Below are positions 33,001 to 39,000 of a stretch of DNA of 64,000 bases, piece after piece. Made by a program: the position numbers. Numbering within the stretch: position 1 is the first letter of the stretch; every line of letters begins with the position of its first letter. The stretch is from Argopecten irradians (lineage: Eukaryota): contig NC_091142.1 in assembly GCF_041381155.1 (NCBI RefSeq), positions 29,933,528 to 29,997,527 on the forward strand. Direction: 5' to 3'.

Positions 33001-36000
33001 AAAATGATACTTTAATTATAAGAAACTGAAAGATGAATACATTTGTAATTATTTGTGAATTTCGCTCTGGTGTACAGAGGAATTACATATTTTGTATTAC
33101 CTTGATAAATACAAAGGGATTAGGCACAAGATATTACAACTTATGACGTCTTATCCAATCATCGTAAAATATTTACAGATGATGACATAGAAACGTGCTG
33201 TGAACAAATGAATATACCGAGTTAAATCCACAAAATGTATAGTAGATTGAACAAAATATTTACCGGTATGCATGGTTCTAAATACATGTACTGAATATGC
33301 ATATTATTATAACTATAAGTGAATTGTATTTCTTAATTTCAAATATTAACTGTATATTTATAAGCGATGTTGACAAAATGTGTTCCATTGTAATACAAGC
33401 ACACTCGGGTCTTGTTTCTGTATTAACATGTATGTCATAAAAGTTGTGCACATTACAGAGAATTTCAAAAGATTATAAGTTATTCATCTTGCTTAACGAT
33501 TGTTTACGATCGATATGGGTTTCCCCGCTTTGTCACTGGATTGAGTGCACTAAATATTGCTATCGTAATGTCTCGGAGTAAAAGAAAATCTGAAAATATT
33601 TTGCATTGTATCTTATTTTATATTGGCGTAATGTTACCGAAAATATCGAACATCGTCCCAACGACCACTAATAAGCACTAAATTCACCCTTTTCAATTCT
33701 CCTATTTAATTCAATTTATTCCGTGGACCTTACGGTCCATAAGTGCAAATTACAACATTTCAAATATACTTTATATTACAAAAAGAGATGATTTCACACC
33801 CACATTCGCCAGTGAGAAGATATTCTTTGGCTATTACAAACTCGATTGAAACACAGTATCTACTAAGTTAAAGTACATGTATTTGTACTAGTGTACATAA
33901 TCTAAGGGTAGAATGCTTTACAATTCTATGTAACTATTGAAAACCTTTTAGATTAATTTTGTAAATTACGAAATAAAATAAATTATCATTTAGATTTGTG
34001 ACCAATAATTACCCTCCTAAATTCTCACGAAATCAATTGACATCTAAGTGTTTATTCATAATAGCGATAAAAAAGATAGCTTGACACTGGCCATTAATAA
34101 GTTTCAATTACCACAAATTCCTTTTATGTAATCGGTGCGTTAATGACGTGCCAGTGTCAGAGGTTGGGACATGTTGTTTTAGTAATTTAGGTTTTCGCTG
34201 AACTCTAATTATGGTGCTATATGTGAACAACAAGAACTTAATCGGTTTCTCAATACTCATTGTGTAATGAAGATGACCTTTATTTTAAGATAAATGTGTG
34301 CAACCCTCATCCGCAGACTACACTCTTCAGCCTCCCGCTGTGATAGACAGATTTACCTGTGTCCGGCCGGCTAACTGGTCATCGGAAGCAAGGACGTATG
34401 TCGCCACGTGCCGAAAAATGTCCAAATATAACCACTGCAGCTTGACACGTATGTGTTGTCATAGCGACGGCTGCCCCAGATCATAGCCACAGGCGTTTAC
34501 CTGTAGACTTTTTTTCAAAATGTAGCGTGTGCAGTCAGTTATGGTACATTGGTTTTCGATAGAAGATCAAACTTTAGTACGGTTATTGTACATGTGGTAT
34601 TATCCAGATTATCGGAGCTCCACTGCTACATTAAACTCAGATGTACGAATGTACAGATAAACATTTATGATTTCAATTTAGATACAACTTTTCGTTCACA
34701 ATTAAAGATTGTGATGATGAGTTCTATGTATATACATCCTTGAAATAATTTTATATCGGTTAGACGATGTATTCTGGTAAGTAGTAATACACCGTACATA
34801 ATAGCTAGGACATGATCATATTATAAAAAATATACATTAAATAGTAATTAAATTATTTATGTCTCAAGGATTTACAAGATGATGTCTCTGTATAGAAAAA
34901 AAATTCACACTTTGATTTGCTGATGCAATTTTGTAAAAAATTTGTTTCGATTTGTAATTCTGGTGTGGACTACGGTGAGTGATTATCTCTACTTATTTAA
35001 ATGATCTAGTTTAAATTGTTAGAATAGCACATTTTGGTGTTCAACAACAATATGTATGGTAAAGGTATTTTTAATCATCCATCATGTCATGCTTAATATT
35101 CCAGGTTCAATAATTTCACTTCTTGTTACACTTACAATTGTATCCAAGTGTAAAAACTCTTGACATCTTGGATCACGGTAGGTATTTCCCTGTGCTAAGA
35201 GGTATGACCCTTGTCTTGGTCACACGACGATCTACCAGCGAAACCATGTACTGGTATTTGACATCACAGGTAGTGCACATATAGTGCAGAATCTCTAGAT
35301 ATATATGAATTAAAAATTAATAAATTAATGTTATCCTTTTATTCACTAAACACGTAACATGGATCAGAAGATTTCAAATATATCGGCAGATTTAGTTAAT
35401 TAACAGTCATATATCGCCAATCGCTGTCTCTCTGGTTCTCATTCGGACACTTAAATTTAGCTGAAATTAAAGCGCCGTTTAAATTAATTAAAGAAAAAAC
35501 CCGTAAAAATCGCATGGCCTTATGCACATCTCAGGAAAAATCGTCTGGGCAAGGATTTATAAGTCTCATATACGTCCTTGGTCTTGGCAACGATACCGCT
35601 GTCGAAGTACCTCGCTCATATGGCTCATGTTGACTCGCTTATGTTGTACACGGAAAGGAAAATTATATTTTGATATTTTATTCTGTTAAATTTCCTGACA
35701 ATGATATCAAAACCGCATAAAAATCGGCCGCTATACCGAGATACCTCCCTCAAAATTGCTCAATTTGTACCTGTATAACGACTCATGCGACTGCTGATTT
35801 GGGGGAATAACCGAACTTGTGACGTCATTACCGGCAGTGGGCTGTTTTGTAGTGTAAAGTACAAATAATGTATGTCTGATATGGGGCTATGATAATTTAC
35901 AACTATATATATACACACACACAATTATACCTGATCCTCGGTATGATTAAGCTATAAGCTTCTTGACCAATTAGGATGATGATATGATTATATGAATATA

Positions 36001-39000
36001 TTACGAAGTATTGCATTTGAACTAATGCTAAAATAATAGTCTAAAGGGATCACCTTGTATACGTATTAGATGTGTGCGGCTCGTAATCCTGATATTCATT
36101 TGAATATGTTCTGTTCAATATACGTGATTTTCTTTCTTTAAAGCAAAGATTTGGATAGTATATCAAAATATTCTAAATATCTGTTTTAAGCAATCATCTA
36201 CAGAGTGATGCAGTACGTTTATTGGTCATATGAATTATCATTATTATCATATGTATATCAAATAATGATCGATATTGACCAAAACTCACAAAGAATTGAA
36301 TATCCGAAATCTAGCAATTATCAGAAATATCATTTCTGACATTATGCATTACTTTTGATAAGGAATTATTAGTTTTCACTTATAAATCCTTGCTTTTGAA
36401 TAGTTCTTTTTTCGATATGCCATTGTAAATAATATTACTGTTTCTAGTATAAAAATACATCAATCTGATTGAAAAATACATACACATGATACACTTGCTA
36501 TATGTAATGTACAAATTGGGCCAAGACCTGTGTACAGTGTGAATTGAAATTACATGATGGTCAATTTGCTCACTCCCGTGGATAGTTTCTCTTTCTTACG
36601 TAATCTGGCCCCTCTCATGAGACCGTATTGAGACGATGTTGACCAGCGAAGTATACAGTTAGAGATTACAACACAGCGTGACATCAGCTAAGAAGTCTCT
36701 AGTCTCAGTTTTTTCTTCACATCCGTGCATGATCTGTTTTATAAATAAAGACACTAATTAATGAATGAATTTCAGCAAAAATATGAACAAGTCATGTACA
36801 GTATGAAAGCTGAATGTTTTTTTTTTGTCAGAAAAAATGGATCGATATATATATCACTCCACTAAATGATACATATATGTATTTGTGTTATGGCGGTTCT
36901 CAAAACTTTATATGTATAATTAAAGCCGCCAATTCACGAAAATGAAATAAATCTGCTCTCAAGATATATTGTTAGACATAATTACTTATATACAAAACGT
37001 TCTGTTTAGAATCATGCCATATATCATGAAAGAACTAGGAGACATCAGCTTACCCGGGTCGGGTCTTGGATAACATAATGAAGGACGTATCAGTCCTTGA
37101 TATGATACATGTATTCAATGTGTATGTGTAGTCACTGGGAATATTGGAATTTTACCAAAGAAATAATAATCACTTTTGATTACAGAAAACAATTGACTTT
37201 TCCCTTAATTACCAAGATCGGTAGCAGAAATATTAGTTCGTAATATTTACACAACGGTATGTTTACATGTATGAAAATAAAATCATTGTCACAGCTTGAA
37301 AGTTTCCTCCGCCTGTATACAAGGTTGGTTAATTTTATTATTGTAAATAATACGAAATAATACTTCACGATATATAATAATATATCAAGGACGAATATAT
37401 AAATAAAACTCATCATCGAAATTTCAATGGTGCTGCTAAATGTTCACAGACATGATGTCTATCGATAATCAAAAACCATAACTGACTGCACACCCTACAT
37501 TTTGAAAAAAAGTCTACAGGTAAACGCCCGTGGCTATGATCTGGGGCAGCCGTCGCTATGACAACACATACGTGTCAAGCTGTAGTGGTTATATTTGGAC
37601 ATTTTTCGGCACGTGACGACATACCTACGTAAAATTCGTCCGGAATATTGCAAGAATTTTATTAATGAACAACATTACGTATAACTTAACGCCAGAGACA
37701 GATGATACTGACGGCTTCTGGATAATCTTCCGACATGGATTTATTCGTCCTTGCTTCCGATGACCAGTTAGCTGGCCGGACACAGGTAAATCTGTCTATC
37801 ACAGCGGGAGGCTGAAGAGTGTAGTCTGCGGATGAGGGTTGCACACATTTATCTTAAAATAAAAGTCATCTTCATTTCACAATGTGTATGAAACTTATAT
37901 TTAGAAACCGATTTTATTTTAAGTTCTTATTGTAAACATCAATCCTTGTAAACATGAATTCTTGGAAGTATATTGGTATAGCTATAAAGCGGTCGTAAGC
38001 TACATTAGAGACGATACACTATACATACACAAGACCGTTCTTATGAAAACGTAAGTCATGACAAATTAGTTATCGACCTCAAACTATTTTCTTTAGACCT
38101 GGCTATAATTTAAGACAGGTGCACGATGAAATAGACTATACTAGCTAGTGATGGCAAGTTTAGATAAGGTCGTCGTAATTCGGCCGTCGAATAAATTTAA
38201 GACATAGATAATAAGTGATATTTTTTTTTAGAAAATGGTGTCAAAATTCAAACTAGTAGAGAAACTTTAAAACACAAAATAAGGACATGTCAGTGAACTC
38301 CTTTGAATAATTAGACAAATGACCCAAGGCCGTCTCTATGATATTTGACTGATGTCACCAACATTAGTCCCGGTCGCTGAAAATTTGGCCACCACTATAA
38401 AATTAGACTGAGGTCATCAAAATTCGACCCGGTCGTTAAAATTAGATAATTGCTGTAATATTAGACTGAGCCATCACAATTTGACCCAGTCGCTAAAAAT
38501 TAGACTCGTCACTGAAACTTAGACCACCACTATAAAATTAGGCTTGGGTCATCAAAATTAGACCCGCCACTGAAAATTAGATCACCGCTGCAATATTCGA
38601 CTCGGTCACCAAATTAGACACGAAGTCTTAAATAAGACGGTCTCTATATAGACTGATGTCATCAAAAAATAGGGGGTTTGGGAATTAGTACACGAACTAT
38701 GGCATGTATTTCTAGACAATTTTGTTCAGAATTATTAGATCAATTTTCCATAAATATAAGACCAAATCGAAGAAAAAAAAATAGTACTTTGTATTGTGTT
38801 TAAGTGTATATGCTCACACAAACACTGCGTAATTTGTGAGGTACATATATGGTATCTATACGATACGTATATGGTAAATATAGTTATGTATCAATCAAAA
38901 TCAATACTATGAAATATTCCATTTTATACGGAATGCTTAAGCAGCACCCATACAAAAGGACGGAAAGATTCATTTTAAAATAATAACTTATAAAATTGAG

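What the first reader, a model, noticed from the sequence alone, without database searches (positions are those of the whole stretch)
34185..37965. 3.8-kb foldback / long-TIR element with non-coding interior
Terminal inverted repeats of ~340-480 bp (~90% identical, one ~105-bp indel) flank ~3 kb of AT-rich sequence lacking any long ORF. The structure resembles foldback elements or large non-autonomous DNA transposons. The spurious 62-aa ORF at 34298-34486 lies inside the left TIR. No transposase is present, so this would be a non-autonomous copy.
Basis: seen in the sequence. Interest (0 to 1): 0.65.

Follow-up and report, generated by a model that had tools for sequence, protein, structure and literature searches.

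The report
Inverted repeat pair in scallop DNA
Two facing copies of a ~0.5-kb non-coding repeat lie 2.9 kb apart in gene-poor bay scallop DNA; another copy on a different chromosome is annotated as the first exon of a truncated LRP1-like gene, and nothing tested shows the 3.7-kb structure is a transposon, so it is ordinary.

Summary
The arms are 34221-34563 and 37458-37939. They share a 294-bp core at 97% identity (E 1e-68 to 4e-73), with a 121-bp indel, around 2.9 kb of AT-rich DNA with no Pfam match in any frame.

The window is from Argopecten irradians (bay scallop), about 19 kb upstream of an RNF34-like gene, in a repeat-rich stretch.

Each arm carries an ATG-ORF module, and the right arm keeps a GT splice donor. 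The right-arm version encodes, apart from a 2-nt indel, the first 47 residues of XP_069107317.1. That is an LRP1-like gene model on a different chromosome record, and no other LRP exon is in the window. So the arm sequence has at least three copies at two or more loci, and one copy is exonised.

Foldback/TIR transposon hallmarks that could be tested failed:
- no TSD
- identity lowest at the outer ends
- no subrepeats
- no transposase remnant

Genome-wide copies of the whole unit could not be retrieved.

Best reading: an inverted pair of copies of a young, low-copy, unclassified dispersed repeat. A decayed long-TIR element remains possible (~0.25). An hpRNA-like locus targeting the LRP1-like gene is a low-probability alternative.

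Interest is low.

The parts
34221..34563 (+). Left arm (343 bp). Its exon-like module reads rightwards, towards the interior.
   Evidence: Alignments. It is one of only two copies in the 64-kb window.
34253..34545 (+). Left arm high-identity core (293 bp; 46% GC against about 32% in the surroundings).
   Evidence: 8 mismatches in 294 aligned bp to the right arm; composition.
34294..34396 (+). Left copy of the exon-1-like module. ATG at 34294; truncated at the 121-bp deletion junction, so the 3' end of the 'exon' and its splice donor are missing.
   Evidence: tblastn of P0242: aa 1-11 at 34294-34326 (100%) and aa 10-35 at 34319-34396; frames.
34564..34696 (.). Left-specific segment (133 bp), replaced by about 25 bp in the right copy.
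   Evidence: Global alignment; no other copy in the window.
34697..34759 (+). Inner weak-homology block, left copy (79% to 37368-37432).
   Evidence: E 5e-7.
34760..37367 (.). Unique non-coding middle (2608 bp, AT-rich).
   Evidence: No Pfam hit in six frames. No other copy in the window. No significant match to the arm termini. No Rfam hit.
37368..37432 (-). Inner weak-homology block, right copy.
37458..37939 (-). Right arm (482 bp). Its exon-like module reads leftwards, towards the interior, so the two modules are convergent.
37625..37745 (-). 121-bp segment present only in the right arm. It holds the 3' end of the exon-like ORF and the GT donor. Short direct repeats (GGACGAAT) at its edges suggest a microhomology deletion in the left arm.
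   Evidence: The third copy (P0242 exon 1) also contains this segment's coding part, so the long form is probably ancestral (inference).
37709..37848 (-). Right copy of the exon-1-like module. ATG at 37848, exon end at 37709, GT donor at 37708-37707. It encodes the first 47 aa of XP_069107317.1 if a CT dinucleotide is added after CACTCT.
   Evidence: phmmer hit, protein sequence, tblastn, reconstruction.

Best explanation
The structure is an inverted (convergent) pair of copies of a young, low-copy, unclassified dispersed repeat of the bay scallop (Argopecten irradians) genome. It lies in a gene-poor, repeat-rich stretch about 19 kb upstream of an RNF34-like gene.

The repeat unit is about 0.43-0.57 kb. 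It has a GC-richer core that happens to carry an ATG, a short open frame and a GT splice donor. In a third, near-identical copy on another chromosome, this module has been recruited as the annotated first coding exon of a 5'-truncated LRP1-like gene copy (XP_069107317.1).

In the window the two copies (2.7% divergent in the core) flank 2.6-2.9 kb of unique AT-rich non-coding DNA. The left copy has lost 121 bp, including the donor.

Shown: the repeat, its limits, the exon correspondence, the existence of a third copy at another locus, and the absence of TSD, subrepeats and coding remnants.

Inferred: the pair arose either by local inverted duplication of one repeat copy or by two nearby insertions, rather than being an intact mobile foldback unit, and it needs no function of its own.
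For: IR real and significant.

Species and locus: the window's exons encode A. irradians RNF34-like XP_069136060.1 exactly, and same-species RNA-seq contigs match at 98-100%.

Arm = exon-1-like module: an exhaustive phmmer search with the arm frame hits XP_069107317.1 residues 10-38. Residues 12-47 are encoded 36/36 by the right arm and residues 1-11 are encoded 11/11. Adding CT restores the exact 47-aa N-terminus, and a GT donor follows.

No other LRP exon in the window. LRP1-like is on a 34.5-Mb record and RNF34-like on a 44.1-Mb record. So there is a third copy at another locus.

The 47-aa peptide has no Pfam family, and the rest of P0242 is a bona fide LDLR-family protein. The paralog P0244 has a genuine LDL-A exon in that position, so the arm-derived exon is a secondary acquisition.

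Not a mobile unit by the tests available: no TSD, fuzzy outer ends and lowest identity at the termini, no subrepeats, no Pfam hit in six frames, and no internal complementary region.
Against: Genome-wide copy number and the context of other copies are unknown. If other loci show the same arm-interior-arm unit with TSDs, this explanation is wrong.

Two copies only 2.9 kb apart, with none elsewhere in 64 kb, argues for a common origin, either one element or one local event, rather than two independent insertions.

The strong heterogeneity of divergence is not explained by a simple single duplication followed by neutral decay (core K=0.028 vs periphery K=0.23, p=7e-8).

The repeat could not be assigned to any TE class, so 'dispersed repeat' rests on only three copies.
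Confidence: 0.5

Rival explanations
1. One reading: a single non-autonomous DNA transposon with long terminal inverted repeats (foldback-like). It would be old enough that its TSD and extreme termini have decayed, with the core of the TIRs kept similar by gene conversion between the arms.
For: Long inverted arms around a non-coding middle domain match the general foldback layout (layout criteria from PMC4079207). The arm sequence is dispersed to at least one other chromosome. Two copies lie within 3 kb and none elsewhere in the window. The window holds another, larger foldback-like structure at 45.3-52.1 kb.
Against: No TSD of 4 bp or more at any terminus pair. The termini are the least conserved part, whereas transposase-bound ends are normally the best conserved. 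No tandem subrepeats in the arms. The middle (2.9 kb) is much longer than the arms. No transposase remnant. The third copy's exon orientation and use say nothing about a paired structure.
Confidence: 0.25
2. Gene-fragment inverted duplication. The arms would be inverted copies of the 5' end (exon 1 and flanks) of the truncated LRP1-like gene. This is the architecture of hairpin-RNA (hpRNA) or proto-miRNA loci, which, if transcribed, would yield siRNAs against that gene.
For: The arms are homologous to an annotated exon of a gene at another locus, with 140 nt encoding an identical peptide. The stem would be about 294 bp, with perfect runs of 90, 53, 34, 32 and 27 bp, and a mini-hairpin MFE of -590 kcal/mol. 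hpRNAs are reported to derive from their targets by inverted duplication of exon fragments (PMC10317233).
Against: The 'parent' exon is itself atypical: no signal peptide by inspection, no Pfam family, and absent from the paralog P0244. It is therefore more likely repeat-derived than the source. The loop of about 2.9 kb is long. There is no evidence of transcription: no arm ORF by exact look-up; the homology search that would bear on this is unreliable. Small-RNA data are not available.
Confidence: 0.08
3. Two independent insertions of a short mobile element (MITE, SINE or solo LTR) that happen to lie in opposite orientation 3 kb apart.
For: Core identity of 97% with fairly sharp core boundaries. 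A third near-identical copy elsewhere. Splice donor and promoter capture by a gene is typical of LTR/TE-derived first exons (general knowledge).
Against: Homology continues beyond the core on both sides. No TSD around either arm beyond chance. No own TIRs above chance. No tRNA, 5S or 7SL head and no A/B boxes. No poly(A) tail. Proximity of two copies of a low-copy family is improbable by chance (roughly 0.1 if a second copy fell at random in the window; inference).
Confidence: 0.12
4. Assembly artefact: a chimeric foldback read, or a mis-join that creates a false inverted duplication.
For: Inverted duplications can be created by long-read artefacts (general knowledge).
Against: The arms differ at 8 substitutions and by several indels (121, 108, 12 and 7 bp), and they are separated by 2.9 kb of unique sequence. 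Artefactual palindromes are near-perfect with little or no spacer.
Confidence: 0.02

Closest known systems
Foldback (FB-like) DNA transposons, e.g. Drosophila FB, Galileo, Tetris (PMC4079207)
   Same: Long inverted arms flank a middle domain with no coding capacity. No transposase is present. The arm sequence occurs at more than one locus.
   Different: No 7-10 bp TSD. No conserved terminal domain, since the ends are the most diverged part. No tandem subrepeats in the arms. The arms (0.34-0.48 kb) are much shorter than the middle (2.9 kb). No second full-length copy is known.
TE- or repeat-derived alternative first exons (exonisation / promoter capture)
   Same: One copy of the arm provides an ATG, a 47-codon ORF and a GT donor spliced to the normal acceptor of an LDL-A exon in XP_069107317.1. 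The peptide has no homologue or domain. The paralog has a genuine exon in that place.
   Different: The repeat could not be assigned to a TE class. Transcription of the two window copies is unknown. Both window copies are out of frame relative to the annotated exon because they lack the CT.
Hairpin-RNA (hpRNA) loci of Drosophila and plant proto-miRNA genes born by inverted duplication of target-gene fragments (PMC10317233)
   Same: [quoted passage not shown]
   Different: The loop is about 2.9 kb. There is no small-RNA or transcript evidence. The homologous exon is probably itself repeat-derived. Nothing is known of such loci in bivalves from the tools used here.
KolobokP composite-like DNA transposons of bivalves, including scallops (PMC9587614)
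   Same: They occur in bivalves, have terminal repeats of about 450 bp, and solo repeats exist.
   Different: KolobokP repeats are direct, not inverted. They have their own 11-18 bp TIRs with RR/YY ends and TTAA-like TSDs, and their interior encodes a transposase and a His-Me nuclease. None of this is present here.
DIRS-like retroelements (inverted terminal repeats plus an internal complementary region)
   Same: Inverted terminal repeats of a few hundred bp around a 3-5 kb interior.
   Different: No RT or tyrosine-recombinase remnant in six frames, and no internal complementary region matching the arm termini.

Membership tests
Foldback / long-TIR non-autonomous DNA transposon | Long terminal inverted repeats | tested here: met
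   Arms of 343 and 482 bp, with a 97% core.
Foldback / long-TIR non-autonomous DNA transposon | Target-site duplication directly flanking the termini (8-10 bp in Tetris/FB; superfamily-specific otherwise) | tested here: not met
   A systematic scan of all terminus pairs at 34100-34270 / 37870-38050 found no exact direct repeat of 4 bp or more next to matching termini. An old, decayed TSD cannot be excluded.
Foldback / long-TIR non-autonomous DNA transposon | Conserved terminal (flanking) domain; sharp ends | tested here: not met
   Identity falls from 97% in the core to about 87% with indels in the outer 32 bp, then to chance.
Foldback / long-TIR non-autonomous DNA transposon | Tandem subrepeats within the TIRs | tested here: not met
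   TRF and the repeat finder show none in either arm, apart from a 16-bp x2.2 repeat at 37930-37964 at the very edge.
Foldback / long-TIR non-autonomous DNA transposon | Multiple genomic copies of the whole element, or empty sites | not testable with these tools
   The A. irradians genome is not retrievable. There were no matches in the metagenome or viral collections. Only a third copy of the arm core is inferred, via XP_069107317.1.
Dispersed repeat family (unclassified) | Near-identical copies at two or more unlinked loci | tested here: met
   Two copies lie in the window, which is on the record carrying RNF34-like (44.1 Mb). One copy is exon 1 of the LRP1-like gene on a 34.5-Mb record. That copy differs by a CT indel, and no other LRP exon is in the window.
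hpRNA-type locus | Inverted-repeat arms homologous to an exon of a candidate target gene | tested here: met
   The arms encode the N-terminal 35-47 aa of XP_069107317.1.
hpRNA-type locus | Defined primary transcript and Dicer-dependent 21-23 nt siRNAs from the stem | not testable with these tools
   No expression or small-RNA data are available. Exact look-ups of arm ORFs found nothing.
tRNA-derived SINE | Pol III A and B boxes / tRNA-like head, and an A-rich or simple-repeat tail | tested here: not met
   No tRNA. No Rfam hit at E<=1. No A/B box within 8 kb of the arms. No tail at either core edge.
DIRS-like retroelement | RT/RNase H/tyrosine recombinase genes and an internal complementary region | tested here: not met
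KolobokP / solo LTDR | Direct terminal repeats with their own short TIRs, RR..YY ends and TTAA-type TSD | tested here: not met
   The repeats are inverted. The only internal TIR candidate (13 nt, 85%) is at chance level. No TSD.

The most novel reading that the evidence does not exclude
The locus could be an evolutionarily young hairpin-RNA gene in a bivalve. A transcript running through 34.2-37.9 kb would fold into a ~300-bp stem. One strand of that stem is antisense to exon 1 of the LRP1-like gene XP_069107317.1, yielding endo-siRNAs that silence this truncated, recently duplicated receptor gene copy. That would be analogous to Drosophila hpRNAs, which arise from and repress young duplicated genes.
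Probability: 0.06. Interest if true: 0.55.

Novelty: new member of a known kind. Interest (0 to 1): 0.17.

Why it matters
As it stands, this matters little. Inverted pairs of repeat copies are common in repeat-rich invertebrate DNA, and repeat-derived first exons are a well-known source of odd N-termini in gene models.

The useful outcomes are practical.
1. The 'TIR' should not be entered in a transposon library as a foldback element without genome-wide support.
2. The N-terminus of XP_069107317.1 (47 aa, no signal peptide) is encoded by a repeated non-coding sequence. The model is probably a 5'-truncated LRP1-like copy with a fortuitous first exon.
3. If small RNAs map to the arms, the locus would be a rare candidate hpRNA outside arthropods.

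Tried and rejected
- Rfam at gathering threshold over the whole window, and at E<=1 over 33.5-38.5 kb, found nothing. ARAGORN found no tRNA.
- Arm RNA folds are no better than shuffles, z = +0.58 and -0.52. Structured-RNA gene rejected.
- Six-frame Pfam scan of 33800-38300 at E<=1 found nothing. Transposase, RT and YR remnants rejected.
- Exact look-ups of arm ORFs and of the neighbouring 463-aa ORF found nothing on record.
- A concatenated six-frame arm query against 5.8e9 proteins gave no hit. This negative proved unreliable: the query held a 36-aa exact match to P0242, which was found only by the exhaustive search. I do not use as evidence of absence.
- Exact 24-25-mers of the arm core gave 0 matches in metagenome contigs (two scans) and 0 in viral contigs. 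These collections are unlikely to contain scallop DNA, so the result is uninformative.
- TSD scans for the composite unit and for each arm alone gave only chance-level matches, or matches lying inside the homologous region.
- DIRS-like ICR test was negative. KolobokP comparison: its terminal repeats are direct, not inverted. SINE A/B boxes: none.
- The idea that the left arm is the LTR of the adjacent gag-protease ORF (31005-32396, minus strand) was rejected. There is no direct-repeat partner, and the orientation of the exon-like module is opposite.
- Flanks 32900-34220 and 37940-38860 have no other copy in the window, so no empty site could be reconstructed.
- The LRP1-like and RNF34-like loci of A. 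irradians could not be fetched.
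Full report
OBSERVATION

The inverted repeat is real. Repeat finding and blastn give two collinear blocks: 34253-34396 vs 37889-37746 (140/144, E 1e-68) and 34396-34563 vs 37624-37458 (159/168, E 4e-73). A global alignment shows that homology continues outward, with two small indels, to 34221/37939. It continues inward, after a left-specific 133-bp segment, as a 62-66-bp block at 79% (34697-34759 vs 37432-37368; E 5e-7).

The arms are 343 bp (34221-34563) and 482 bp (37458-37939). The large indel is 121 bp (37625-37745), present only in the right arm. The interior (34564-37457) is 2894 bp at 32% GC. Its longest ORF is 78 aa, and it has no Pfam match in any frame at E<=1. 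The arm sequence occurs only twice in the 64-kb window, and the interior and flanks are unique there.

CONTEXT

The window is eukaryotic, with only seven ORFs of 120 aa or more in 64 kb. It contains:
- Ty3-like retroelement remnants: RVT_1 at 18032-19216, a PNMA-like gag, and a separate gag-protease ORF at 31005-32396.
- A host gene for an RNF34/RFFL-like E3 ligase on the minus strand.

Homology search puts that gene in scallops. The window's exons encode Argopecten irradians XP_069136060.1 exactly, and Logan RNA-seq contigs match seven exons (15263 to 8563) at 98-100%. So the window is bay scallop DNA. From 32.4 to 64 kb no open segment of 60 aa or more has a Pfam match. The inverted repeat therefore lies in a gene-poor, repeat-rich stretch about 19 kb upstream of RNF34-like.

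WHAT THE ARMS ARE

An exhaustive phmmer search with the longest open frame of the arm core (34289-34483) found three weak hits. One is at 83% identity to residues 10-38 of a 1936-aa protein. That protein is XP_069107317.1, 'prolow-density lipoprotein receptor-related protein 1-like [Argopecten irradians]'.

tblastn shows that only its first ~48 residues map to the window:
- Right arm, minus strand: 37848-37816 for aa 1-11 (100%), and 37823-37707 for aa 10-48 (36/36 identical for LQPPAV...DYPEAV).
- Left arm, plus strand, partially: 34294-34396.

In both window arms the ATG and the long frame are out of phase. Adding a CT dinucleotide after CACTCT in the right arm reproduces the 47-residue N-terminus exactly. 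The 'exon' then ends at 37709, followed by GT at 37708-37707. No other LRP exon is in the window.

The LRP1-like gene is on a 34.5-Mb record, whereas RNF34-like is on a 44.1-Mb record. So a third, near-identical copy of the arm core exists at another locus and is annotated as a first coding exon.

The remainder of XP_069107317.1 is a normal LDLR-family protein, while the 47-aa N-terminus matches no family. By inspection it also lacks a signal-peptide-like hydrophobic stretch. The paralog XP_069107316.1 has genuine LDL-A repeats upstream of the same junction (TTTNRTCQ...). The arm-derived exon is therefore a secondary acquisition by a 5'-truncated gene copy, the usual signature of repeat exonisation.

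The exon includes part of the 121-bp right-specific segment. So the long (right) form is probably ancestral. The left arm has lost the exon's 3' end and the donor through a deletion bordered by short direct repeats. The two modules are convergent, with their 5' sides facing outward.

IS IT A TRANSPOSON?

Criteria for foldback elements were taken from PMC4079207: a conserved terminal domain, tandem subrepeats in long TIRs, a non-coding middle, 8-10-bp TSDs, and several copies. Here:
- No exact TSD of 4 bp or more flanks any plausible pair of termini.
- The outer ends are the least conserved part of the arms.
- There are no subrepeats.
- There is no transposase, RT or recombinase remnant.

A DIRS-like internal complementary region is absent. 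KolobokP elements of bivalves have direct, not inverted, terminal repeats. SINE features are absent: no tRNA-like head, no A/B boxes, no tail. The arm RNA is not unusually structured.

The decisive test, copies of the whole unit elsewhere in the genome, could not be run. The A. irradians assembly is not retrievable here, and the DNA collections that can be scanned do not contain scallop DNA.

UNEXPLAINED

Divergence between the arms is heterogeneous: 8/294 in the core (K=0.028) against 22/112 in the peripheral patches (K=0.23), Fisher p=7e-8. The conserved core is not confined to the exon-like module. It spans from 41 bp upstream of the ATG to about 234 bp past the donor, so selection on the 'exon' does not explain it. 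Gene conversion between the arms, descent from different source copies, or a young element sitting in an older repeat all remain possible.

CAUTION ON A NEGATIVE RESULT

My concatenated six-frame query returned no hit, although it contained a 36-aa exact match to XP_069107317.1. That search was therefore insensitive, and it is not used as evidence.

CONCLUSION

The most likely reading (about 0.5) is an inverted pair of copies of a young, low-copy, unclassified dispersed repeat. It was produced by local inverted duplication or nearby insertions, with no function of its own. One family member elsewhere has been exonised into an LRP1-like gene model.

A decayed long-TIR/foldback element remains possible (about 0.25). 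Two independent insertions of a short element are less likely (about 0.12).

The most novel reading not excluded is an hpRNA-like locus. The arms are an inverted duplication of sequence identical to an annotated exon, and they could form a ~300-bp stem (perfect runs up to 90 bp), as in Drosophila hpRNAs that derive from their targets (PMC10317233). But the loop is 2.9 kb, the 'target' exon is probably itself repeat-derived, and no expression data exist (about 0.06-0.08).

Overall this is an ordinary feature, with a useful annotation lesson.

Noticed in passing
window 45313-52067: A much larger nested inverted structure. Arms 46976-48693 vs 48952-50684 (87%, 1.8 kb, 259-bp spacer). Outer arms 45625-46952 vs 50751-52064 (76%). 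Direct repeats also occur within each side (47195-47927 ~ 45313-46082; 51414-52065 ~ 49544-50142). Each arm is thus built of ~1.9-kb repeated units that flip orientation near 48.8 kb. This is more foldback-like than the flagged element. No Pfam domain in ORFs of 60 aa or more, and the outer boundary is fuzzy.
   Followed up: partly
window 8563-15263 (minus strand): Host gene: RNF34/RFFL-like E3 ubiquitin ligase (FYVE-like, SAP_RNF34_RFFL, RNF34L-like_3rd, RING). Seven exons were mapped by same-species RNA-seq contigs at 98-100% identity. It encodes A. irradians XP_069136060.1 exactly, which identifies the source organism.
   Followed up: yes
protein XP_069107317.1 (P0242), A. irradians, not in the window: The first 47 residues of this LRP1-like gene model are encoded by a copy of the arm repeat. 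They have no signal peptide and no Pfam family. In the paralog XP_069107316.1 the corresponding position holds genuine LDL-A repeats. The model looks like a 5'-truncated duplicate with a repeat-derived first exon.
   Followed up: partly
window 16800-21300 (minus strand): Ty3-like retroelement remnant: an integrase-like frame at 17263-17661, RVT_1 at 18032-19216, and a PNMA-like gag at 19799-20230. The best relatives are only 50-67% identical mollusc proteins. A 110-bp direct repeat (16489-16598 ~ 20468-20577, 94.5%) brackets it and may be LTR fragments.
   Followed up: partly
window 31005-32396 (minus strand): An isolated 463-aa ORF with a gag-type aspartyl protease and a C2H2 zinc finger, in a GC-richer block (30-33 kb). 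No adjacent RT was found. It is not linked to the inverted repeat by any repeat.
   Followed up: partly
window 1-819; 38336-38603; 38854-40060; 22590-22690: Tandem arrays: 73 bp x10.5 at the window start; a degenerate 58/19-bp array 400 bp right of the right arm; 456 bp x2.7 at 97% identity; and 15 bp x7. None has an Rfam hit at gathering threshold.
   Followed up: no
window 27512-27679 and 29295-29393: Two small imperfect palindromes (about 80-85% self-complementary). Inverted repeats of several sizes recur in this window.
   Followed up: no
tool behaviour, vs 53: A concatenated multi-frame query with X spacers to the word-indexed protein search missed a 36-aa exact match that the exhaustive search later found. 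Negatives from such composite queries should not be trusted.
   Followed up: yes
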